Part shown: positions 421 to 61,932 of the stretch, one piece after another
Layout of the letters: the number at the start of each line of letters is the position of its first letter
How positions within the stretch are numbered: position 1 is the stretch's first letter
From: Octopus vulgaris
Lineage: Eukaryota
Direction of reading: 5' to 3'
Assembly (NCBI GenBank): GCA_951406725.2
Contig: OX597843.1
Coordinates: 13,702,001 to 13,766,000 of the forward strand
Length of the DNA stretch: 64,000 nt
Translations under genes and position numbers: made by a program
The notes under the pieces: generated by a model
Told to the model about the DNA's origin: nothing
The model's database searches: none
The model's input: only the letters and a program-made list of their open reading frames with translations

Positions 421-648
421 ATGATGGATTCTGATACATCAAAGATGATGTATGAGTGTCCAGTTTTGGCTAAACAACCTGCACAGATGATCTGTTTAGA
501 GGGATCAAATGTTTGAGCTGTACATGAGCTCTCTCTGGCCCTTTTGTGCCATTTCTGTTTCTATATACCAAAAGCTTCTTCTTTGAGGGACATTTGGCTG
601 CTATTAACTGATTTCTGAAGATAAATGTTGAGTATTACAACAGCTTAC

Positions 649-3195: not shown

Positions 3196-3602
3196 TCATC
3201 ATCATCGTTTAGCGTCCGCTTTCCATGCTAGCATGGGTTGGATGGTTCAACTGGGGTCTGGGAAGCCAGAAGGCTGCACCAAGCCCTGTCTGATCTGGTA
3301 ATGTTTCTACGGCTGGATGCCCTTCCTAACGCCAACCACTCTGTGAGTGTAGTGGGTGCTTTTTACGTGCCACCGACACAGGTGCCAGAGGAGGCTGGCA
3401 AATGGCCATGATTGGATGGTGCTTTTTACATATCACCCTCACAGGGGCCAGGCGAGGCTGGCAATGGCCATGATCGGATGGTGCTTTTTACGTGTCACCG
3501 GCATGAGGCCAGTCGGGGCGGCGCTGGCAACGGCCATGATTCGGATGGCTCTCTTACGTACCACCGGCACTGGTATCACAGCTGCAATTTCTATTGATGT
3601 TG

Positions 3603-6671: not shown

Positions 6672-8190
6672 TATATATATCTATGTGTGTGTATGTCTTT
6701 GTGTTTGTCCCTCCATCATCACTTGATAACTGTTGTTGGTGTGTTCACGTCCCCATAACTTAGCAGTTCAACAAAGAGAGACTGATGGAATACGTACTAG
6801 GCTTCAAAAAACAATCCTGGGGTCAATTTGTTTCACTAAAACCCTTGAAGGCAGTGCTCCAGCATGTCTGCATTCTGATGACAGTAAAACATTATATACA
6901 TATACATCCCCCTAAAAAGTGGGTTGGCCATGGCTGGAAAGTCTTTGGTTTGGCCTCAGCTTAATAAGGACTGACAGCAATAACAAAATGAATTCAAGAA
7001 GGGGGGGGGAGCCTCTTAGAGGTCTCCTGTGCAATTAGAAATAGCAGTCAAACTGCCTTCAAATCAATTTCAACCCTCATAAAATAGGGAAGAACACAGC
7101 TGACATTGTGTTTGGACTCCTCAGATAGGATGGTCATGGATGGCTGCAATGCTTCTGATAGCTCTGTTGGGTCTGGTCTGACCTAGGGCTAAACAGCGAC
7201 TCCTAGTAAGGGAGCAGCTCCTTTGTGGTATGGTCAACTGATCTGCTAGAAACAGCAGCCAAATGACTCTAAAACTGAAACACTATTTTGAAGGAAGAGA
7301 AGGAAGCACTGGGAATATATTTTGTAAGATAGGGAAAAGAGACAGGAGGGCCATGGATGGAAAGTTGTTGATGAGACCTTGAGAAGCTTTCTTGATCACC
7401 TCCCCCCCCCCCCGGATCTTTCATCCCCAGATCAACTTACCCCGTAACAATGTTCTCACCCTCACTGACAATTAGGGTGGAGAGAAGGAGAGGAAGAAGC
7501 AACAATTGAGACCCCCCCCACCTCTACTGCCCTTCCCCCTACTAATCAGACCACTGCCCCTCCCACACCAGATGCATGTTCCTCCCTCCACTCCTCTGAC
7601 CATCACACACCTGCCTCCCCATTTCAAATGTTACCCCCTCATTATCTAATCACTGCCCTGCCCTCCCCACTAGATACCCTCAGCCCATTGTACCCCCCAC
7701 CAATAATAACCTTCACCCACCCACGCCCACCACCAGATTACCATCTCTCCTCCTATTCCCCCCTCCATTTCACTGTTTCCCCCCTCATCAGATCACTGCA
7801 ATCATCCACCCCCTCCCTCACTTCAGGTCACTGCTCCCCCCACTGCTGCCAATATCCTTCCACCCTCCACCCACACACCCAATACAGCCCCCCACCCTGC
7901 TCCCAGTACCCCCTGCTCCTGGTGCTGCAGCAACCATAAACACAGGAAGTTGCCTGGCCAGTGTCAGAAACACATGTGGTAACACCCCCCATCCGCATAT
8001 ATGTTATGTATGTATATACACCTCCCCCCCACGGCTCCCCCCCCCCCGGGTGGTGAAGGGATGGGTACGGGGGGGGAAGGTGGAGACAGTAGGGAAAGGG
8101 TTTAAAGAGGGAATAACAGTACCCTCTCGTTCCCCACCCCACCCCAACCTGCTCCTTGTCCTAAATTCCTCCACAGTCACTCTACAAGCC

Positions 8191-18984: not shown

Positions 18985-21240
18985 AATAATAACAGAGAGA
19001 AAGCAACCATACTTTGGGATGTGCCAATACACACAAATAGAGAAATCAAGGCTAATAGACCAGATATAGTTATCAGAGGACCCCAAGAAAAAAAAAAGTT
19101 TTCTAATCAATGTACCAATCCCAACAGATGACAATGTGTCTCTAAAAGACATACAGAAACTCTCAAAATACAAAAACCTGAAAATAGAGACAACCTGAGT
19201 GTGGAGCCTTGAAACAGAAGCAACCAATATAATGATCGGTGCATTAGGAATCATCATCATCATCATCATCATCGTTTAGCATCCGCTTTCCATGCTCGCA
19301 TGGGTTGGACGGTTCAACTGGGGTCTGGGAAGCCAGAAGGCTGTACCAGGCCCAGTCTGATCTGGCAATGTTTCTACGGCTGGATACCCTTCCTAATGCC
19401 AACCACTCCGTGAGTGTAGTGGGTGCTTTTTACGTGCCACTGGCATGGGGGCTAGGCGAGGCTAGCAACGGCCACGATTAGATGGTGCTTTTTACGTGCC
19501 ACCGGCACGAGGCCAGTCAGGGCGGAGCTGGCAACGGCCATGTTTGGATGGTTCTCTTACATGCCGCCGGCACTGGTATCACACAAAAAAAACATTCAAA
19601 TACATAGCAAAACCACCAGGACTTAGCAAAACCACCAGTATGTATAACATAGAGAAAATAGCACTACTAGGAATCACACACGTCCTACAACCATAAGAGC
19701 ACCACAACAAACCACAGCACATACCCAAGGCACACAGACCTGCGCTCGGTAGTGCAGTGAAAACACGTGATAAAAATAAGACTACTGAATAATAATGATG
19801 GAATAAAACATTCAATGACGAGGGAAAGGATTAGAAAAGAATGTTATTGCAGGTTAAGGGCAATACTCAAGACACAGAGCTGAATGCAAGAAACAGGATC
19901 GAAGTGATCAATATTTTAGCCATACCAGTCATAACTTACAGTTTCATTATCGTTAACTGGTCAGTTACTGAAAGATGTAATCTTGACAGAAAAATACAAA
20001 AACTGTTGACACTGCATAGGATGCACCACGCTAAGGCAGATATAGAACGACTTTATCTACCAAGAAAAGAGGGAGGCCATGGACTTTTACAACTGGCAAT
20101 AACAATGAAGATTGCCACAATTGACTTAAGCATCCACCTGAAAAAACTCTGAGGACTGGATGTTAAAATTTGTCTCAAAAAATGAAAACAAGAAAACATC
20201 ATACTCAGTAACAAAAGAGGCAAAGGAATCATCATCATCATCATCATCATCATCGTTTAACATCCGTTCTCCATGCTAGCATGGGTTGGACGGTTCGACC
20301 GGGGATCTGGGAAGCCAGAAGGCTGCACCAGGCTCCAGTCTTATCTGGCAATGTTTCTACAGCTGGATGCCCTTCCTAGCGCCAACCACTCCGTGAGTGT
20401 AGTGGGTGCTTTTTACGTGCCACCTGCACTGGTGCCAGGCGAGGCTGGCATCGGCCACAGTCGGATTGGTGCATTTTACGTGCCACCGGCACGGAAGCCA
20501 GTCGAGGCGGCACTGGCTTCGGCCACGATTCGGATGGTGCTTTTTATGTGCCAGTCGAGGCGGCGCTGGAAACCAGTCGAGGCGGCGCTGGCATCGGCCA
20601 CGATTTGGATAGTGCTTTTTACATACCACCAGTCCAGGGGTCCTGGCATCTGCTGGATGCCAGTCATAGGATTGGTTCAATTTCGATTCTGATTTCGATT
20701 TCAATTTCATTTGCCCCAACAGGTCTTCGCAAGCAGGCATGGGTGCCTGCCGTCGGATGAGGTTCGATATCGACTTCGCTTGCCTCAACAGGTCTTTGTG
20801 TGTCCAAGGGAGGAAAGGCATGCATAAGTGAATTCCGAATACAACAAATCCCAGAATTAGATGTACTGGAAACAAGCACAGAAAAAGCTAAGCATAAGAA
20901 AGCCCATGCTAAAACTGTTGCCTTAGATATTCTGACTGATAAATGGCAAGAAAAACCTCTCAATGGCAAATACCCAAAGAGAGCTAATAGTGCCAATGTT
21001 GACAAAGCCCTTACCCATCAGTGGCTAGTGTCTTCTGGCTTAAAATCAGAAACAGAAGGGTTTATCATAGCAGGCAAAGATCAATGCCTACCTATACAAG
21101 GATCTACCAGGCCAACATATTAAAGAACAGCAGTAGCTCAGCATGTCTCGTATGTAAACAGCAAAATGAAACCATTTATCATGCTGTCTCCATATGCAGT
21201 CTTCTTGCGCCGACAGAATATCTCAACAGGCATGATGGAG
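18985..21240 (+). mobile_element. R4/Dong-clade (REL-endonuclease) LINE fragments, interrupted by RTE 3' ends
   Basis: ILWDVPIHTNREIKANRPDIVI (REL PD motif, about 19010-19075); INILAIPVITYSF...RLYLPRKEGGHGL (19841-20152); WQEKPLNGKY...GLKSETEGFII and the CCHC knuckle CLVCKQQNETIYHAVSIC (20940-21240). Confidence 0.8.
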
Positions 21241-26844: not shown

Positions 26845-27765
26845 ATTGGAGCTACGAGGCATCTTCGGAGGCTAGGTCATGTCAACAGAATGGATCCAGG
26901 ACGGATTCCAAAGGACCTGCTGTACGGACAGCTAGCGGAAGGCTCCAGAACAATGGGACGCCCCAAACTGCGCTTCAAGGATATCTGCAAGAAGGACCTA
27001 AAGCTTATGCCAGATCAACACCCAAACATGGGAATCCACTGCTGCCGACAGAAGTGCCTAGCGACACAGTGCCATAAATTCCACCCCTCAAACATGGGAA
27101 TCCGCTGCTGCCGACAGAAGCGCCTAGCGACACAGTGCCATAAATTCCACCCCCCAAACATGGGAATCCACTGCTGCCGACAGAAGCGCCTAGCGACACA
27201 GTGCCATAAATTCCACCCCCAAACATGGGAATCCACCGCTGCCGACAGAAGTGCCTAGCGACACAGTGCCATAAATTCCACTCCCAAACATGGGAATCCG
27301 CTGCTGCCGACAGAAGCGCCTAGCGACACAGTGCCATAAATTCCACTCCCAAACATGGGAATCTGCCACTGCCGACAGAAGTGCCTAGCGACACAGTGCC
27401 ATAAATTCCACCCCCCAAACATGGGAATCCACCGCTGGCGACACAGTGCCATAAATTCCACCCCCCAAACATGGGAATCCACTGCTGCTGACAGAAGTGC
27501 CTGGCGACCCAGTGTCAAGCACAGTGCCATGACAGCAGAGAACCCGAGGACCACAACTGCCAAACTAAAGAGAACCAGGCAAAAGGAGCAGCAGCAGCAG
27601 CAGCAGCAACCACAGCTCTCGTCCCCTTTTATTTGCACCAGATGTGGTAGAGACTGCCACTCGATGATTGGTCTGCACAGCCACACCAGGAAGGGCAGAT
27701 AAACTCACCACCTTTCCCGAGCTACACCATCGTCTCTCGAGATGGGCGGATGCCAAAGAAGAAGA
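26845..27765 (+). mobile_element. RTE-clade (BovB-like) LINE 3' fragment with an internal tandem expansion
   Basis: LGHVNRMDPGRIPKDLLYGQL..GRPKLRFKD..KKDLK, TWESTAADRSAWR and the C-terminal C2H2 finger CTRCGRDCHSMIGLHSH. Confidence 0.85.
27021..27507 (+). repeat. 65-66 bp minisatellite, about 7.5 copies
   Basis: Unit cccaaacatgggaatccactgctgccgacagaagtgcctagcgacacagtgccataaattccaccc. Confidence 0.92.
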
Positions 27766-28650
27766 TTTTTGGAGCAACAGGGTACATACTGACCCACCTG
27801 GAGCAAAATGTGGAGAGAACCTAAACCCTTAACCCATAACACTACAAATGATCACCAATATCTGGGATGAAAGAAGTCTACCAGAGCTTCTTCCTAAGTT
27901 TGAGACGAACAAAACAAGATACATTCCTTCATACACTTGCAACCATATATGTTTCTTTATTACCCACAAGGAGCTAAACATAGAGGGGACAAACAAGGAC
28001 AGACAAAGGGATTAAGTCGATTACATTGACCCCAGTGTGTAACTGGTACTTAATTTATCGACTCCGAAAGGATGAAAGGCAAAGTCAACCTAAAGACGTA
28101 AAGACAGACGAAATACCTATTTCTTTACTACCCACAAGGGGCTAAACATAGAGGGGACAAACAAGGACAGACAAAGGGATTAAGTCGATTACAATGACCC
28201 CAGTGCGTAACTGGTACTTAATTTATTGACTCCGAAAGGATGAAAGGCAAAGTCGACCCCGGCGGAATTTGAACTCAGAACATAGTGGCGAGTGAAATAC
28301 CGTGAAGCAATTCGCCCGGAGTGCTAATGTCTCTGCCAGCTCGCCACCAAATATGGTGGCTGGCCAAAATTTACTGTAAATTCAAAAGAGGACATCCATA
28401 CATGTGTGCATACATACTTATGCATACATATATGTGTACATACATATACTCTTTTACTCTTTTACTTGTTTCAGTCATTTGACTGCGGCCATGCTGGAGC
28501 ACTGCCTTTAGTCGAGCAAATTGACCCCAGGACTTATTCTTTGTAAGCCCAGTACTTATTCCATCGGTCTCTTTTTGCCGAACCGCTAAGTGACGGGGAC
28601 GTAAACACACCAGCATCTGTTGTCAAACAATGCTAGGGGGACAAACACAG

Positions 28651-33837: not shown

Positions 33838-33844
33838 AATATAT

Positions 33845-34492
33845 AAATAGTGATCAATTTGGCTGCTACTTCTAATATTTTCGGTATGTGGTTTTGAGCA
33901 ACTTGTTGCAATTAACCCTTTATTATAATTAATATAATCCTTACCAAATATGGTCTTTTCCATACCGATAAATCTACTAGGTGAAATTTATTAATTTTAT
34001 TAAATTAATTATATTTCACCCTTTTTGCATATTGAATACTATTACTCCCTTACAAGAAACCTGTGAAACTTCGTTTCGTTGGTAATGTTTTTGTAACTCA
34101 CGTGGTAATTTTGGAGGGAAATATGAATTTGCATGTCTGTATAGATGTAGGGGTGCTAGCAATCTGTTAGATCGTTCGATGTCGCTGGTCGAGCTGGTGT
34201 AACGGGTGAGTTTTGTTCCCCTAGCATTTCTAGATTTATAGGAAATATTATATTGACAAGAAAATGAGCCTTCGGTTCTAATCCAGAAATGATTCGTCCA
34301 TAATTAATCCATAGGCTGGGATTTTGTTATTTTCTTTCTTTTTGCCATATACGGGTTACAAATTCTGTTTGTTTGTGGAGACTTTTTTTAATATTAGGAG
34401 AAATAGTGATCAATTTGGCTGCTATTTCTAATATTTTCGGTATGTGGTTTTGAGCAACTTGTTGCAATTAACCCTTTATTATAATTAATATA
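33845..34492. repeat. 92-bp direct repeats flanking a 464-bp unique core
   Basis: 33845-33936 and 34401-34492 differ at one base; flanked by TA-rich sequence. Confidence 0.85.
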
Positions 34493-35344: not shown

Positions 35345-38062
35345 GGAATGGTAGTTTGTTGTTAAATGTGTGAGACTGAAATACTTTTAATGAATTTGGG
35401 AGAATAATTGTGTTTTGGAAGTGAGAGCTTTGACCGACATCTTGTGTGTGTTTACATACATCTATATGTATGTGTGTACATGTATAGATATGTGTGTGTG
35501 TGTAAGTGTTTATAAGTGTGTGTGTGTGTGTATGTATGTTAACCTCTGTGTGTGTGTGTGTGTGTGGTAAGTGTTTAAACAATAGACAAAGAGGGAAGTT
35601 GTTATTTTGAAGTGGTCCGTGTGACATCTTTGTGTAAAAAGACCAGCTGTTTATTGAACTAATTGTCTGTAAAGAAATCCCAGCTGCCTGTTGAGGAATA
35701 AAACAAAGGACAAAGAATTTCTGGGATGGTTCTTTGAATGCCTTGCTTGTCCAGCAATGCCTGACTGTTTGATGTTTGCTTTGAATCTTCGGAAATCCTT
35801 GAACATTTGACTGAATTTTATTGGACGAAATGTTTAGGTATTTCATCTGAGTTCAAATTCCGCTGAGGTCGATTTTGCCTTTCATTCTTACCAGTCGATG
35901 CAATCGACTTAATCCCTTTGTCTGTCCTTGTTTATCCTCTCTGTGTTTAGCCCCTTGTGGGTAATAAAGAAATAGGTATTTCGTCTGCCGTTACGTTCTG
36001 AGTTCAAATTCTGCCGAGGTCGATTTTGCCTTTCATCCTTTCGGGGTCAATAAATTAAGTACCACTTGCACACTGGTGTCGATGTAATCGACTTAATCCC
36101 TTTGTCTGTCCTTGTTTGTCCTCTCTGTGTTTAGCCCCTTGTGGGTAGTAAAGAAATTGATATAGGCACAGTTGTGGATGTGTTGTGGTAAGAACTTTGC
36201 TTCTGAACCACAAGGTACTGGGTTCAGTCCACTGTGTGGAACTTTGGGCAAATATAAGGTCTTGGGGGTAGATTTGGTTGACAGAAACTGTATATACATA
36301 TGTGTGTGTGTGTGTGCATGCACGAGCGCACACACACACACACACTCACTCACACACACACACTCACACACACGCACTCACTCACACACACTCACACACA
36401 CACACACACACACACTCACTCACACACACACACACTCACACACACGCACTCACACACACACACTCACTCACACACACACACACACACACACTCACACACA
36501 CACACTCACACACACACACACAGGCGCAAGAGTGTGGCTGTGTGGTAGGAAGTTTACTTCTCAGCCGGACGCTTGAGTTGACCATACTGCTATGTTGTGG
36601 CACCTTGAGTTGACCAGAGCCTTGTGAGTGGATTTAGCTGATGGAAACTGAAGGAAGCCCATTGTGTGCGTGTTTGTGTGACTGTGCTTGTGTCTGCGTT
36701 TGTCCCCACCACTTGGAAACTGGTGTTGGTTTGTTTATGTCCCTAACTTGGTGGTTTTGCAAAAGAGACTGATAGCCACAGGAGTGGCTGTGTGGTAAGT
36801 AGCTTGCTAACCAACCACATGGTTCCGGGTTCAGTCCCACTGCGCGCCATCTTAGGCAAGTGTCTTCTGCTATAGCCCCGGGCTGACCAATGCCTTGTGA
36901 GTGGATTTGGTAGACGGAAACTGAAAGAAGCCTGTCGTATATATATATATATAGGCGCAGGAGTGGCTGTGTGGTAAGTAGCTTGCTTACCAACCACATG
37001 GTTCCGAGTTCAGTCCCACTGCGTGGCATCTTGGGCAAGTGTCTTCTGCTATAGCCCCGGGCCGACCAAAGCCTTGTGAGTAGATTTGGTAGATGGAAAC
37101 TGAAAGAAGACTGTCGTATATATGTATATATATGTGTATGTGTTTGTCCCCCTAGCATTGCTTGACAACCGATGCTGGTGTGTTTACATTGCCGTCACTT
37201 AGCGGTTCGGCAAAAGAGACCAATAGAATAAGTACTGGGCTTACAAAGAATAAGTCCTGGCGTCGAGTTGCTTGACTAAAGGCGGTGCTCCAGCATGGCC
37301 ACAGTCAAATGACAGAAACAAGTAAAAAAAAAAAAAAAAGAATGAGCGCCAGGTTTAAGAAGAGAAAAGACTCTTCAAGGTGCTGCCCCAGCTTGGCCAC
37401 CGTCTAATGACTGAAACAAGTATAAGGATAAAAGATACAGTTGCAAGGTTCAGAGACAACAGTTGGACCCATGCAGTTTCCACGTGGTCCTCAAGGGATC
37501 AGAAAAGGCCACTTGGAAAGGTTCCGTGATGGTGTGAAGACAACATAGTTAAGTGATATGGGTCAATCAGGACAGAATTGGAAGCACATTGTGACCAGTG
37601 GTGTCTAACAGCATTTGATGGCCTGGTCGATACTGCCATACAGTGATATACACACGTAGGGTAACAAAGAGGTTGTAATCTAAGGTGTGACTTTGTTATA
37701 GTTGACCAAAAATTTGTGAATATATACACATGCATATATATATATATATGTGTATATATATATATATATAAATTGAATCAGAGATAAAGCCACTATTAGG
37801 CAAATCAAACAATGAAAAACAAACCAAAACATAAAAATAAAAATAATTAATATAATATACAAAATATATAAAATATAAAATTTAAAAATTTAAATTATTT
37901 ACATTTTAAATTAATTTTAAATTATTTTAAATTATTAATTTATATTTATAAATTTTCATTTTTTAATTTTTTTATTTTTTAATTAATTAATTATTTTTTT
38001 ATTTATTTTATTTTTTAAATTAAATATATATAATTATCAAAAAGTTTAATTTAATATAAGAT

Positions 38063-55003: not shown

Positions 55004-55180
55004 TAGAGGTCAGAAAAGTGACAGAGGGTAGTGACCAGCATCAGCTATTGCTAGAAACAACAGTTAAAACAACTCAAAAGCCACAAAAGCACTGAGCTTT
55101 TGAGGTTTTTAAGTTGTTTTAACTGTTGTTTCTAGCAATAGCTGATGCTGGTCACTACCCTCTGTCACTTTTCTGACCTC
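55004..55180. repeat. Palindrome with about 70-bp arms
   Basis: agaggtcagaaaagtgacagagggtagtgaccagcatcagctattgctagaaacaacagttaaaacaact is inverted at 55111-55180. Confidence 0.85.
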
Positions 55181-55998
55181 TGTTTATATATACTCTTTAC
55201 TCTTTTTCTCTTTTATTTGTTTCAGTCATTTGACTGCGGCCATGCTGGAGCACCGCCTTTAATTGAGCAACTCGACCCTGGCACTTATTCTTTGTAAGTC
55301 CAGTACTTATTCTATCTGTCTCTTTTGCCAAACCGCTAAGTGACGGGGACATAAACACACCAGCATCGGTTCTCAAGCAATGCTAGGGGGACAAACACAG
55401 ACACACAAACACACACACATACATATATATATATATACATATATATGACGGGCTTCTTTCAGTTTCCATTTGTCAAATTCACTCATAAGGCTTTGGTCAG
55501 CCCGAGGCTATAGTAGAAGACACTTGCCCAAGGTGCCATGCAGTGGGACTGAACCCGGAACCATGTGGTTGGTAAACAAGCTACTCACCACTCCTGTACC
55601 TATATATATATATATATATTTATGTAATGGAGAAATTGTACAAAATGGATGATGAGTAAAGCACCGGCACATTTTTGATTACCTGTTGTTAGCTGTAGGT
55701 TTACTGCAGGAACTTTGTAGGGGCAGTTAGGGTAACAGTATTGATAAAATAGGAGATGGAATGTGTAATAGACTTTATTGTGTACATGTTTCAACCTGTT
55801 TTGGGTCTCTTCAAGTACCTCAATAAAAAGTCTCACAAGAGATTTCCTCAGTCGGCCTGAGTACCGTTATATGTCCATCAAATTCGAGAATTAGTAAAAA
55901 TCAGAGTAAAATTATTGAAACACAAAAGATTCAAATATGAAGGTTGAAAGAAATACAGTCTAGTTTAGAGAAAATGATGGAATCAGCTTTTGCTGATA

Positions 55999-58417
55999 TA
56001 CATGGTAGCTAGACCTAGTAGAAATAGCAGCCAAATCTCTCTCAAATCACACCCTACTCTCTTATGTATGTATATATGTATGTATGAGCCAATGAGGGAG
56101 ACCTCTACATGGTAGCTAGACCTGGTAGAAATAGCAGCCAAATCTCTCTCAAATCACACCCTACTCTCTTATGTATGTATATATGTATGTATGAGCCAAA
56201 GAGGGAGACCTCTACATGGTAGCTAGACCTGGTAGAAATAGCAGCCAAATCTCTCTCAAATCACACCCTACTCTCTTATGTATGTATATATGTATGTATG
56301 AGCCAATGAGGGAGACCTCTACATGGTAGCTAGACCTGGTAGAAATAGCAGCCAAATCTCCCTCAAATCACACCCTACTCTCTTATGTATGTATATATGT
56401 ATGTATGAGCCAATGAGGGAGACCTCTACATGGTAGCTAGACCTAGTAGAAATAGCAGCCAAATATCCCTCAAATCACACCCTACTCTCTTATGTATGTA
56501 TATATGTATGTATGAGTCAATGAGGGAGACCTCTACATGGTAGCTAGATCTGGTAGAAATAGCAGCCAAATCTCCCTCAAATCACTCCCTACTCTCTTAT
56601 GTATGTATATATGTATGTATGAGCCAATGAGGGAGACCTCTACATGGTAGCTATACCTGTTAGAAATAGCAGCCAAATCTCCCTCAAATCACACCCTACT
56701 CTCTTATGTATGTATATATGTATGTATGAGCCAATGAGGGAGACCTCTACATGGTAGCTAGACCTAGTAGAAATAGCAGCCAAATCTCCCTCAAATCACA
56801 CCCTACTCTCTTATGTATGTATATATGTATGTATGAGCCAATGAGGGAGACCTCTACATGGTAGCTAGATCTGGTAGAAATAGCAGCCAAATCTCCCTCA
56901 AATCACTCCCTACTCTCTTATGTATGTATATATGTATGTATGAGCCAATGAGGGAGACCTTTACATGGTAGCTATACCTAGTAGAAATAGCAGCCAAATC
57001 TCCCTCAAATCACACCCTACTCTCTTATGTATGTATATATGTATGTATGAGCCAATGAGGGAGACCTCTACATGGTAGCTAGATCTGGTAGAAATAGCAG
57101 CCAAATCTCCCTCAAATCACACCCTACTCTCTTATGTATGTATATATGTATGTATGAGTCAATGAGGGAGACCTCTACATGGTAGCTAGATCTGGTAGAA
57201 ATAGCAGCCAAATCTTCCTCAAATCACACCCTACTCTATATATGTATGTATGAGCCAATGAGGGAGACCTCTACATGGTAGCTATACCTGTTAGAAATAG
57301 CAGCCAAATCTCCCTCAAATCACACCCTACTCTCTTATGTATGTATATATGTATGTATGAGCCAATGAGGGAGACCTCTACATGGTAGCTAGACCTGGTA
57401 GAAATAGCGGGCAAATCTCCCTCAAATCACACCCTACTCTCTTATTTGTGTATATATGTATGTATGAGCCAATGAGGGAGACCTCTACATGGTAGCTATA
57501 CCTGTTAGAAATAGCAGCCAAATCTCCCTCAAATCACACCCTACTCTCTTATGTATGTATATATGTATGTATGAGCCAATGAGGGAGACCTCTACATGGT
57601 AGCTATACCTGTTAGAAATAGCAGCCAAATCTCCCTCAAACAACACCCTACTCTCTTATGTATGTATATATGTATGTATGAGCCAATGAGGGAGACCTCT
57701 ACATGGTAGCTAGACCTGGTAGAAATAGCGGGCAAATCTCCCTCAAATCACACCCTACTCTCTTATTTATGTATATATGTATGAGCCAATGAGGGAGACC
57801 TCTACATTGTAGCTAGACCTGGTAGAAATAGCAGCCAAATCTCACTCAAATCACACCCTACTCTCTTATTTATGTATATATGTATGTATGAGCCAATGAG
57901 GGAGACCTCTACATGGTAGCTATACCTGATAGAAATAGCAGCCAAATCTCCCTCAAATCACACCCTACTCTCTTATGTATGTATATATGTATGTATGAGC
58001 CAATGAGGGAGACCTCTACATGGTAGCTAGATCTGGTAGAAATAGCAGCCAAATCTTCCTCAAATCACACCCTACTCTCTTATGTATGTATATATGTATG
58101 TATGAGCCAATGAGGGAGACCCCAACATGGTAGCTAGACCTGGTAGAAATAGCAGGCAAATCTCCCTCAAACCACACCCTACTCTCTTATTTATGTATAT
58201 ATGTATGTATGAGCCAATGATTGAGACCTCTACATGGTAGCTAGACCTGGTAGAAATAGCAGCCAAATCTCCCTCAAACCACCCCCTACTCTCTTATTTA
58301 TGTATATATGTATGTATGAGCCAATAAGGGAGACCTCTACATGGTAGCTAGACCTGGTAGAAATAGCAGCCAAATCTCACTCAAATCACACCCTACTGTC
58401 TTATGTATGTGTATATG
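55999..58417 (+). repeat. 107-bp tandem array (about 22 units)
   Basis: Unit tacatggtagctagacctggtagaaatagcagccaaatctccctcaaatcacaccctactctcttatgtatgtatatatgtatgtatgagccaatgagggagacctc; period measured 56106->56213. Confidence 0.97.
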
Positions 58418-58419
58418 TA

Positions 58420-59682
58420 CGAGGGGCGTTCAATAAGTAATGCCCCTGACCCACTTGCAGTTGTTTGATCTAGCTGAAATTTTGCATGTGCGCCTACTTA
58501 TACCCCTATAAATTAAGTGGCGAATTACATCTCTGAACTAATTGTGGTTTCTGATTTACAGGTGTTTGAACTGAGTCAAGTGTGAAATTGAACCTGTTGA
58601 GTGTCGAGCAGTGATCTGGTTTTTGTATTTGAAAGGACGCACACCACGGGAGACTTTTGATGAAATGAAAGTAACTTATGGTGATGATGCCCCATCATAT
58701 GACCTCGTAAAACGCTGGCATTGTGAATTCAAACATGGTCGGAACCCTGTGGAAACAGCTCCCAGATCTGGTCGCCCCCTTCTGCCGTTGATGAGACGTC
58801 TGTCCGTCAAGTTGAGGCTGCCATTTTGGAAGGTCACCGCATAACTATTCGCCAAACAGCCCATAAGGTCAAGATTAGTACTGGGTCTGTGGAAACTATC
58901 ATTCATGACCATTTGCATATGCAAAAGGTGTCTGCCAGATGGATTTCCAGGTTGCTCACACCTTTCCAGAAGCAAGAACGCGTTGAGTGCTCGAGGATGA
59001 ATTTGGAGATGTGCCAAGAAGATGAGTCAAAATTTTTCAAAAGACACAGGATAAAACCTGGGTCCATCACTATGATCCATAGACCAAAGCCCAGTCAATG
59101 CAGTGAAAGCACCGTGACTCACCTCCTCCAAAGAAGGCAAGGGTGCAGCCTTCTGCTGACAAGGTTATGCTCACAGTCTTCTGGGACCAGGACGGAGTAG
59201 TGATGACAGATTTTCTGGCAAAGGGTACCACAATTACAGGAGCCTATTATGCTTCACTTTTGAGGAAATTAAGAGAAGCTATCAAAATCAAGAGGCGGGG
59301 CAAGATCAGCAAAGGCATCCTCCTCCTGCAGGACAACGCTCCGGTCCACAACTCGCGTGTCGCCAGATCAGAAGCACAGGCGTGCAGCTATGAACTCCTC
59401 CCCTTGCACCCTCTGATTTTCACCTCTTCCCAGTCATGAAGTTGATTTTGAAAGGAAAGCGTTTCCCAGATGATGCAGCCTTGATTTTTGAAGTCACGTC
59501 ATGGTTGGAGGACCAAGCTGGGGTCTCCTACAAAAACGGTCTCCAGAGCTGCATCAAACGATGGGAGAAATGCATAACTCTGGGTAGTTCCTATGTAGGA
59601 AAAGACTAATAACTGTGCCAAGTGTCGTTGCTCTACTGCTATGGGAAGTGGGTCAGGGGCATTACTTATTGAACGCCCCTCG
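58420..59682 (+). mobile_element. Full-length decayed mariner (DD34D) element
   Basis: TA TSDs; TIRs CGAGGGGCGTTCAATAAGTAATGCCCCTGACCCACTT; transposase remnants RSGRP, KVSARWISRLLT, KVMLTVFWD, LLQDNAPVH and LAPSDFHLFP with frameshifts. Confidence 0.93.
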
Positions 59683-60286
59683 TATGTATGAGTCAATGAG
59701 GGAGATTCTCTTAACAGATTCAACAGCAAAACCTGATTCCATCAGAAAAGGAAGTTGAAAGGAAGATAATTCTTTGATGAAAATTATATATATACACTGT
59801 CTAGGAGAATTTTAGTTGAATGAATCAACCCCTAGTTCTTATTTTTCAAAGTATGGTAATTATTCTATCAGTCTCTTTTGCTGGACCACTAATTTACAGG
59901 AATATAAACACTGTCAAGCAGTGGTGGGAATAAACACAGACACACACAAACACACACACATACATACATTCATACATACATACATACACATATATACACA
60001 CATGCATACATACATACATACACACATACATACATACACACATACATACATACATACACACACATACATACATACATACATACATACATAAATCTGTTAT
60101 CTTTTACTTGTTACAGTCATTAGCCTGTGGCCATGCTGTGGCCACTTTGGACAACTCCTTTTAGTCGAATGAGCTGGTCCCAGTATTTATGTTTGTGTTA
60201 AGCCTGGTATATATTCTATCAGTCTCTTTTACCAAACTGCTAAGTTATGGAGACGTAAACACACATATATACAAGCATATATACAC

Positions 60287-61015
60287 AAGCCAATGAGGGA
60301 GACCTCTGCATGGTGGCTACACCTGTTAGAAATAGCAGCCAGATCTCCCTCAAATCACACCCTACTCTCTTATGTATGTATATATGTATGTATGAGCCAA
60401 TGAGGGAGACCTCTACATGGTAGCTAGACCTGGTAGAAATAGCAGTCAAATCCCCCTCAAATCACACGCTACTGTCTTATCTATGTATATATGTATATAT
60501 GAGCCAATGAGGGAGACCTCTACATGGTAGCTAGACCTGGTAGAAATAGCAGCCAAATCTCCCTCAAACAACACCCTACTCTCTTATGTATGTATATATG
60601 TATGTATGAGCCAATGAGGGAGACCTCTACATGGTAGCTAGACCTGGTAGAAATAGCAGTCAAATCCCCCTCAAATCACACGCTACTGTCTTATCTATGT
60701 ATATATGTATATATGAGCCAATGAGGGAGACCACTACATGGTAGCTAGACCTGCTAGAAATTACAGCCAAATCTCCCTCAAATCACACCCTACTCTCTTA
60801 TGTATGTATATATGTATGTATGAGCCAATGAGGGAGACCTCTACATGGTAGCTAGACCTGGTAGAAATAGCAGTCAAATCCCCCTCAAATCACACGCTAC
60901 TGTCTTATCTATGTATATATGTATATATGAGCCAATGAGGGTGTCCTCAACATGGTAGCTAGATCTGGTAGAAATAGCAGCCAAATCTCCCTCAAATCAC
61001 ACCCTACTGTCTTAT
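60287..61015 (+). repeat. Second block of the 107-bp tandem array (about 7 units)
   Basis: Same unit as 55999-58417; variant cagtc recurs at 60443, 60657 and 60871 (214-bp period). Confidence 0.95.
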
Positions 61016-61932
61016 ATATTTCAGTTGATGAAAGTATTTGAAAATCCCAGGAGATTCTTGTGGTAGTGGTGTTGTGATCCGGTGTATAGGACAATCATTG
61101 CTGAGGGGAAGGGCCTGCAGAACTGTCACTGAATACTTAAGGGATTATGTGGAGATACAACCAATCCAGGGAGTGGGGGGATTGCAATGTTGTGTGAATG
61201 TAGTTCCTTGTTTTTGTGTGTTGACTGTGACCTTGAGCATGATAAGAGGGTCTACCATGTTGTTTAACCCTAGGTCAATACTGATCCACTAGACTTATGA
61301 TGGCGGCTGTTAAAACTATGATTGTCTTGATTTCAATTCAGCCCTAGTCTACCTTGGACTATATAATTTAATGGGTCCTTCCAACTTTAAGACAGCTAAG
61401 CAATGATTTCAGGGAGATTTAGCTGCTATTTCTTGTGAAGTAAGGTACCACATAAAAGTTACTCACCAAATTTTGATGATGATGATGATGACAATGGCAA
61501 AGATAGCAACAATTACGATGATGATGGTAATGATAGTGGTGGTAGTACTGGGGGTGGTGGTGATGATGGTAATGATAGTGGTGGTAGTACTGGGGGTGGT
61601 GGTGATGATGGTAATAGTGACAATGATGGTGGTAGTAGTTGGTGGTGGTGATGACAATGATGATAGCAGTGATGCTGGTGACAGTGATGATGATGATGAT
61701 GATGATGGTGATGGTGAATGTGATGGTTGTGGTGGTTGTGGAGGCGGTGGTGGTGGTGTTAAGTAGAACACAACGAATCGCCCCCAGAGGCTCTGTGTGA
61801 AGGAAGTAAAACAGCAGACTATTTTCTTAGGACACCCAAGAGAGAGAGAGGAGGGGGGTGCAACGGGGGGGGGGGTCGGGGAGAGGGGGAGAGAGAAGAT
61901 AACATTTCACTGTTGTCATGTTGACGTGGGTG

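What the first reader, a model, noticed from the sequence alone, without database searches (positions are those of the whole stretch)
55999..61015. 107-bp tandem array whose monomer folds like an HDV/CPEB3-type ribozyme (retrozyme-like satellite)
Seen in each unit, in the order required for the nested double pseudoknot: P1 5' GAGCC(A); P2 5' GAGGGAG(A); P3 ACC, 7-nt L3 TCTACAT, GGT; P1 3' (T)AGCT, which is TGGCT in the 60287 unit; P4 CTGNTA-GAAA-TAGCAG, perfect at about 60750; J4/2 C-CAA(A); P2 3' TCTCCCTC. Established: antigenomic HDV has P3 ACC/GGU and J4/2 CUAA, and CPEB3 L3 is UUCACGU. Array TCTACAT and the dispersed copy TTTATGT (about 61445, minus strand) both fit CpG decay of TCTACGT. 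Decayed dispersed relatives occur near 585, 7010, 7210, 25225, 55040 and 61405. Inference: an abundant ribozyme-derived repeat amplified into about 29 tandem copies, which if active would cut multimeric transcripts into 107-nt units. Caveats: P1 is short and mismatched and the G25 equivalent is A, so array copies may be dead.
Basis: partly seen in the sequence, partly recalled or inferred. Interest (0 to 1): 0.72.

Follow-up and report, generated by a model that had tools for sequence, protein, structure and literature searches.

The report
SINE-derived satellite hopping along chromosomes
This 107-base repeat is the front half of an old jumping element, turned into a small satellite that sits in dozens of short arrays, mostly on the three smallest chromosomes; it likely spread by local DNA copying, and its resemblance to a self-cutting RNA is partial and likely a dead relic.

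Summary
The array is real (22.8 + 6.8 units, split by a mariner transposon). It is one locus of a genome-wide family: 551 exact junction matches, only 27 of them on C1-C27. The unit is the first ~86 bases of an old, dispersed ~230-base SINE-like element plus a TATG spacer; that element's other half forms its own arrays. The HDV-like resemblance is partial: P2, P3, a 7-base loop and a C-A-A-A joiner are there, but P1 and P1.1 do not form, the G25 position is A and P4 is broken. 0 of 30 window units, 0 of 581 array units and 0 of 69 old copies pass a canonical descriptor; no covariation, no Rfam hit. Arrays start and end at scattered points, lack target-site duplications, sit preferentially next to old parent copies in the same orientation, and carry chromosome-specific subtypes with variant units shared between neighbouring arrays. 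This fits DNA-level local spread, as for Drosophila Rsp-like/1.688, better than a diffusible retrozyme. The parent may once have carried an HDV-like ribozyme (about 40%). The scan noted hammerhead retrozymes in this genome and an HDV-type one in an amphibian (unchecked), not this family.

The parts
55999..58419 (+). 107-nt tandem array, first block (22.8 units; begins at unit position 21)
58420..59682 (+). broken mariner/Tc1 transposon inserted at a TA in the array's microsatellite spacer (later event)
59683..59705 (+). array remnant after the mariner, ending at unit position 16
59724..59744 (+). 21-nt inverted copy (20 of 21 identical) of the sequence just before the array (55975-55995): templated insertion or a pre-existing hairpin at the landing site
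   Evidence: no other copy among the fetched loci
60288..61019 (+). 107-nt tandem array, second block (6.8 units, with a 214-nt higher-order alternation)
56300..56406 (+). representative unit (equal to the family consensus except position 81); positions 1-86 come from the parent element, 87-107 are a TATG spacer
56307..56365 (+). HDV-like nested part: P2 (56307-56315 with 56357-56365), P3 and loop (56315-56327), broken P4 (56336-56351), joiner (56352-56356); only P2 is predicted to form
56341..56357 (+). core (unit 42-58) with about half the variation of the adjoining part; kept in all related tandem families seen
61258..61475 (-). old full-length copy of the ~230-nt parent element (head plus tail), 240 nt after the array, facing it
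   Evidence: E 4e-39
6914..7372 (+). old head-to-tail tandem of the parent element (tail, full copy, second copy)
567..605 (-). old fragment of the parent head
55006..55180 (.). near-perfect inverted pair (85-nt arms) holding a weak parent-head fragment, tail-to-tail

Best explanation
The array is one locus of a dispersed satellite made from the front half of an old ~230-base SINE-like element, and it likely spreads by DNA-level copying between nearby sites rather than through a self-cleaving RNA. Shown: origin from the parent's head, many loci, scattered end points, no duplication of target sites, association with old parent copies, chromosome-specific subtypes, shared variant units between neighbouring arrays, and some arrays duplicated together with their flanks. 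Inferred: a head unit once joined its own end through a TATG tract; breaks in or near old parent copies are repaired by copying from an array close by in the nucleus (strand invasion, template switching, or re-insertion of excised DNA circles); unequal exchange then lengthens and mixes arrays. The HDV-like layout is inferred to be inherited from the parent and inactive in the arrays.
For: Many loci: 551 exact junction matches, 27 on C1-C27 (C28-C30 are 3% of the genome, lengths). Start and end positions scattered over the unit in 88 non-edge arrays or copies. No excess of target-site duplications in 61 non-redundant arrays (12/4/2/0 words of 6/7/8/10 nt against 9.1/3.2/0.7/0.07 shuffled). Parent tail within 300 nt downstream on the same strand in 14 of 61 arrays, opposite strand 3; upstream 6 against 0; background 56.5 tails per Mb. 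Same subtype in 78% of locus pairs under 2 Mb apart, 49% further on the same chromosome, 12% on different chromosomes; 0 of 5,000 permutations. Genome-wide: the window's subtype 146 matches, 6 before C30; a second 267, 7 before C29; a third 23, 19 within C28:13.3-16.2 Mb. Compound variants shared among C30 arrays including the window. Arrays duplicated with their flanks (L133, L214-L216, L218; L043/L080/L222). A>G and T>C changes equal per site, so no RNA-editing mark (read). The tail half also forms 125-155-nt arrays, in 8 of 40 array loci against 1 of 60 unselected loci. Precedent: Rsp-like inserting into 1.688 clusters (PMC7403614, passages) and Tribolium Cast satellites (PMC11610590, passages).
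Against: No circle DNA or empty-site comparison was possible, so the repair route is inferred. Inversions are 7 tail-to-tail against 1 head-to-head; plain DNA fold-back predicts no bias, and twin priming by a reverse transcriptase on the minus-strand RNA would give this. Array consensuses differ from the family consensus by a median 2.3% while units within arrays differ by 10.5% (59 arrays), and positions 42-58 vary about half as much as 29-41: this hints at a sequence-dependent step that neutral DNA turnover does not explain. Most variants are private to one array (1,070 singletons against 411 shared). Subtypes are not absolute: about 18 of 92 units of the large C30 array carry the C29-type letter and one C30 variant array lies on C7. 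Most arrays (about two thirds) have no detected parent tail beside them. The unit and its tandem joint are in RNA-type contigs.
Confidence: 0.65

Rival explanations
1. Ribozyme-independent RNA route: array transcripts are reverse transcribed in cis by a LINE or Penelope enzyme at breaks near the source locus, primed by homology with old parent copies; the template would be the minus strand.
For: Inversion bias 7 to 1, plus L144 and L172 seen by eye; Penelope insertions often carry an inverted 5'-truncated copy and lack clear target-site duplications (PMC8557442, passages); star-like divergence from one master; tandem joints in RNA-type contigs.
Against: No fixed end on either strand; inversions are a minority; no editing asymmetry; subtype confinement to chromosomes; shared variant units and flank-carrying duplications.
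Confidence: 0.18
2. Active HDV-type retrozyme: each unit cleaves just before its first G, monomers circularise and are copied round by a reverse transcriptase into new arrays.
For: Many short arrays with scattered ends, as for non-LTR retrozymes (PMC7229834, part 2 of 6); P2, P3, loop U...C and C-A-A-A joiner in the right order; 4 of 581 array units pass a relaxed register with a 6-pair P1 and one P1.1 pair; the parent also occurs in head-to-tail tandems (19 of 106 complete tails followed by a head on the same strand, 2 opposite).
Against: 0 of 30, 0 of 581 and 0 of 69 pass the canonical descriptor; the consensus that spread has A at G25, no P1 or P1.1; predicted pairing probability of P3 and P4 is 0.00; no covariation; no Rfam ribozyme hit; circular monomer only 54% paired; tail half forms arrays without the fold; local spread.
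Confidence: 0.08
3. The arrays travel mainly as passengers of Helitron-like or other DNA elements.
For: Sub-groups share flanks (L053-L055, L075-L078, L132; L067-L074; L043/L080/L222); a Helitron-like family holds two inverted pieces of the head (L184-L202; class recalled from its 3' hairpin and CTAG end).
Against: Most arrays have unrelated flanks (61 non-redundant of 88); the window's array has no shared flank.
Confidence: 0.07

Closest known systems
Drosophila euchromatic satellites Rsp-like and 1.688 (Sproul et al. 2020, PMC7403614; passages read)
   Same: Short arrays spread along a chromosome, landing in clusters of an older abundant repeat, with variable junctions; inter-locus conversion and circle re-insertion proposed.
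   Different: Here the newcomer is a derivative of the old repeat itself (a SINE-like element), both halves of which form arrays, and each small chromosome carries its own subtype.
Tribolium Cast satellites in gene-rich regions (PMC11610590; passages read)
   Same: Dispersed short arrays, irregular ends, burst-like spread, some carried by transposon-like elements.
   Different: Cast satellites mostly exchange between chromosomes; this family is strongly intrachromosomal. Circle DNA was shown there, not here.
Metazoan non-LTR retrozymes (PMC7229834 part 2 of 6; PMC7761336 passages; bioRxiv 10.64898/2026.07.22.740005 parts 1-2 of 5)
   Same: Non-coding, dispersed tandem arrays of a short unit with few to dozens of copies.
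   Different: Those carry a type I hammerhead in each unit and give abundant, highly paired circular RNA; here no hammerhead core on either strand, no complete ribozyme, weak circular fold.
HDV-like ribozymes at the 5' end of LINEs and their bipartite non-autonomous derivatives (L1Tc/NARTc, SIDER, RTE, R2; PMC3185411, PMC4035085, PMC5786205; passages read)
   Same: Position at the front of a short non-coding element ending in a microsatellite-like (AAC)n run; P2, P3, 7-nt loop with U, C, G at the conserved places in the parent, C-A-A-A joiner.
   Different: No P1.1 pair in the canonical register even in the parent, no G1, P1 at best 6 of 7 pairs, no partner LINE found, no covariation.

Membership tests
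HDV-like ribozyme | P2 stem and 3-pair P3 closing a 7-nt loop | tested here: met
   26 of 29 and 27 of 29 window units by pairing; P3 not predicted to form in the ensemble
HDV-like ribozyme | 7-pair P1 starting with G1-Y | tested here: not met
   array consensus gives about 4 of 7; 0 of 581 units pass with G25; parent at best 6 of 7 with a U-A first pair (read); descriptor from PMC6326823 passages
HDV-like ribozyme | P1.1 (1-2 pairs between loop and the joiner after P1) | tested here: not met
   no pair in the canonical register in arrays or parent consensus; one U-A pair only if P1 is shortened to 6
HDV-like ribozyme | U20-G25 reverse wobble (loop U...CG) | tested here: not met
   0 of 29 window units; present in three other arrays' consensus and in old copies
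HDV-like ribozyme | catalytic C in a C-R-R-A joiner after P4 | tested here: met
   C-A-A-A present; P4 itself broken in most units
HDV-like ribozyme | covariation of stems | tested here: inconclusive
   none above column-shuffle null in 37 old copies for P3, P4 and 7 copies for P1, P2; decayed copies make the test weak
HDV-like ribozyme | C-dependent self-cleavage | not testable with these tools
   needs an assay
non-LTR retrozyme | dispersed tandem arrays of a non-coding unit | tested here: met
non-LTR retrozyme | complete self-cleaving ribozyme in consecutive units | tested here: not met
   no hammerhead core on either strand; no HDV pass; no Rfam hit
non-LTR retrozyme | monomeric linear and circular RNA | not testable with these tools
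   only assembled contigs available
non-LTR retrozyme | Penelope-type insertion marks (inverted 5' copy, fixed ends) | tested here: not met
dispersed euchromatic satellite DNA | many short head-to-tail arrays with internal turnover and inter-locus exchange | tested here: met
dispersed euchromatic satellite DNA | presence on extrachromosomal circular DNA | not testable with these tools
   needs circle sequencing or 2D gels
5S rRNA-derived SINE (parent) | similarity to 5S rRNA | tested here: not met
   no HMM hit, best shuffle p 0.066 against the genome's own 5S
bipartite non-autonomous LINE (parent) | 5' and 3' ends shared with an autonomous LINE | tested here: inconclusive
   no coding partner next to head or tail in about 1.3 Mb fetched; the RT frame in L133 is a later insertion

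The most novel reading that the evidence does not exclude
The ~230-base parent is a cephalopod retroelement headed by an atypical HDV-like ribozyme (six-pair P1, single U-A P1.1), and its two halves became minimal circles that are copied in cis into old homologous copies on the same chromosome: a homing, chromosome-restricted retrozyme lineage in which CG-bearing units still cleave.
Probability: 0.1. Interest if true: 0.75.

Novelty: new member of a known kind. Interest (0 to 1): 0.32.

Why it matters
As read here it is a clean case of a retroposon half turning into a satellite and spreading in cis: two marker bases label chromosome-specific lineages, and old parent copies appear to act as landing sites. 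That makes the open question of how short satellite arrays move (circles, conversion or transposition) testable in one family. It is also a caution for ribozyme scans: a partial HDV layout in a tandem repeat need not be a retrozyme. If the parent or the few CG-bearing units did cleave, it would be an HDV-type ribozyme in a cephalopod retroelement, which my searches did not find in print.

Tried and rejected
Rfam: nothing at gathering score in the window; at loose E-values only microRNA-type matches to microsatellites and hairpins. Hammerhead core: none on either strand. Twister: compared by eye with a recalled consensus, no fit; no Rfam hit. 5S origin: rejected. Target-site duplications: no excess. 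In-phase homology just outside array ends: slight at the 5' side (0.377 against null 0.348, sd 0.011), none at the 3' side; the local alignment absorbs diverged end units. Partner LINE: none. Two exact patterns for an undecayed parent found 0 matches and one found 1. One profile iteration drifted into flanks and was dropped. RNA evidence: 20 of 24 listed runs hold the sampled words but there were only 4 words; the 8 runs laid are contigs, one on record as RNA, so strand, ends and level are unknown; the unique flank had no cover, which shows nothing. Before counts I dropped edge-touching arrays (5 of 93), shared-flank groups, diverged subfamilies, duplicates and arrays under 2 units (88 to 61). 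Ruminski et al. 2011 was not held. Literature searches: octopus + HDV-like ribozyme 0 papers; searches listed no paper on this repeat by title or abstract start; Repbase and Dfam could not be searched, so the parent may already be catalogued. No supplements were read.
Full report
Observation. The window holds two blocks of a 107-nt repeat, 55999-58419 and 60288-61019, with 29 near-full units and a remnant. A broken mariner (58420-59682) sits in a TA of the spacer. The window lies on C30 of a 2.8-Gb genome; that it is octopus-like is recalled from its repeats and from earlier scan notes, not from a call of mine.

A family, not a locus. A 27-letter junction occurs 551 times on both strands, 27 times on C1-C27. 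In the fetched loci 88 arrays or single copies had both ends in view; start and end positions are scattered over the unit, with some excess in the microsatellite. These loci were chosen from search hits, so they are not a random sample. Much larger arrays lie near the window: at least 92 units about 8 kb before it and over 100 units near 14.52 Mb. The unit and its tandem joint also occur in contigs of coded organisms A to E and a metagenome run.

Origin. Positions 1-86 of the unit are the head of an old dispersed element of about 230 bases: head, A-rich linker, tail ending in (AAC)n. It occurs at roughly 60-100 hits per Mb in 655 kb of unselected sequence. 29 of 69 old heads have a tail downstream; 19 of 106 complete tails are followed by a head on the same strand and 2 on the other, so the parent also forms short tandems. 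The tail half makes its own 125-155-nt arrays, in 8 of 40 array loci and 1 of 60 unselected loci. Related head arrays of 96, 101, 115 and 124 nt exist. A 5S origin was tested and rejected; no partner LINE was found.

Ribozyme test. The descriptor (G1-Y P1 of 7 pairs, C-G pairs in P1.1, loop U, C, G, joiner C-R-R-A) is from passages of PMC6326823; P1.1 may be a single pair in L1Tc (PMC3185411, passages). P2 and P3 can pair in most window units, but G25 is absent in 29 of 29 and no P4 is all Watson-Crick; the unit called perfect has two mismatches. With one P1 mismatch and one P1.1 pair allowed, 0 of 30 window starts, 0 of 581 distinct array units and 0 of 69 old copies pass; 4 of 581 pass if P1 is cut to 6 pairs. 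Folding gives P2 probability 0.98 and P3, P4 0.00 for the consensus; for a parent reconstruction P2 0.97, P4 0.84, P3 0.11. Covariation does not exceed shuffles, a weak test on decayed copies. Rfam finds no ribozyme. The parent fits better: loop U-C-U-A-C-G-U, perfect P4, P1 at best 6 of 7, still no canonical P1.1 (a relative's contigs show the same CG-rich joiner). Its place at the front of a short element matches bipartite LINE derivatives with 5' ribozymes (PMC5786205, passages). I put the chance that the parent head was an HDV-like ribozyme at about 40%, and that the array consensus cleaves at under 10%. Importantly, 59 arrays share nearly one consensus (median 2.3% from the family consensus) while their units differ by a median 10.5%: the broken fold is the form that spread, not a product of decay after insertion.

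How it moved. No target-site duplications beyond chance. 14 of 61 arrays have a parent tail just downstream on the same strand against 3 on the other; upstream 6 against 0. Two spacer-side bases define subtypes that sort by place: 78% identity of subtype within 2 Mb, 12% between chromosomes, borne out by genome-wide patterns (only the first 100 places are listed, so 46 and 167 matches are unplaced, all after the last listed position). Compound variants are shared among C30 arrays, the window included, and some arrays were duplicated with their flanks. The window's first block has a 21-nt inverted copy of its left flank just past its right end. A>G and T>C changes are equal per site. Together this points to copying between neighbouring DNA sites, seeded by homology, as proposed for Rsp-like in 1.688 clusters (PMC7403614, passages) and Cast satellites (PMC11610590, passages). 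The repair pathway itself is inferred.

Against this reading. Inversions are 7 tail-to-tail to 1, which a reverse transcriptase priming twice on the minus-strand RNA would produce (geometry inferred; Penelope structure from PMC8557442, passages). The slow-changing consensus and the conserved core at 42-58 suggest a sequence-dependent step, although the largest C30 array has four changes, one in the core, and some singleton changes may be assembly error. Subtype confinement is not absolute. RNA-type contigs hold the unit but cannot show strand or ends.

Comparison and verdict. It works like a dispersed euchromatic satellite and meets that description; it resembles non-LTR retrozymes in layout (PMC7229834, part 2 of 6; bioRxiv 10.64898/2026.07.22.740005, parts 1-2 of 5) but fails their defining ribozyme test. 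Searches listed no paper on this repeat; repeat databases were not available. Earlier scan notes (unchecked) describe hammerhead retrozymes in this genome with back-to-back arms and fixed ends, which prompted my geometry test, and an HDV-type family in an amphibian; none matched this sequence. New member of a known kind; interest 0.32.

Noticed in passing
L184-L202 (for example G000:C2:47843969-47844154): A young family (1,362 first-look candidates) with a 3' hairpin and CTAG end, Helitron-like by recalled features, carries two inverted pieces of the parent head as an internal palindrome.
   Followed up: partly
L159, L158, L149, L160, L011: The parent's tail half forms its own 125-155-nt tandem arrays, often within a few kb of head arrays.
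   Followed up: partly
L034 (G000:C29:29868601-29871655): A separate 96-nt tandem family of the same head, at least 30 units; others of 101, 115 and 124 nt in L125, L052, L144.
   Followed up: partly
L133:5944-8352: An RTE-type LINE (clade recalled; Pfam RVT_1) inserted into an array with a duplication of about 14 nt; the array with its flanks is repeated several times on C29.
   Followed up: partly
window 56301-56310 and every unit: The unit opens with a perfect match to the recalled NF-Y CCAAT-box consensus, with TATA-like letters in the spacer; possibly a promoter module, possibly chance.
   Followed up: no
window 55006-55180: Near-perfect 85-nt inverted pair, the first 69 nt identical, though the sequence itself is a heavily decayed repeat: a recent fold-back duplication.
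   Followed up: partly
window 3355-3499, 20405-20630, 27021-27514, 27952-28258, 36772-37132: Short tandem arrays (63-179-nt units) of other common repeats; tandem formation from SINE pieces seems general here.
   Followed up: no
window 59691-59705 and 60288-60302: The end of the first block and the start of the second overlap by 15 nt (14 identical), which could be a target-site duplication around a 580-nt insert.
   Followed up: no
window 33842-33899 and 34402-34442: Two copies of another repeat that shares only the conserved core of the head (also in L119).
   Followed up: no
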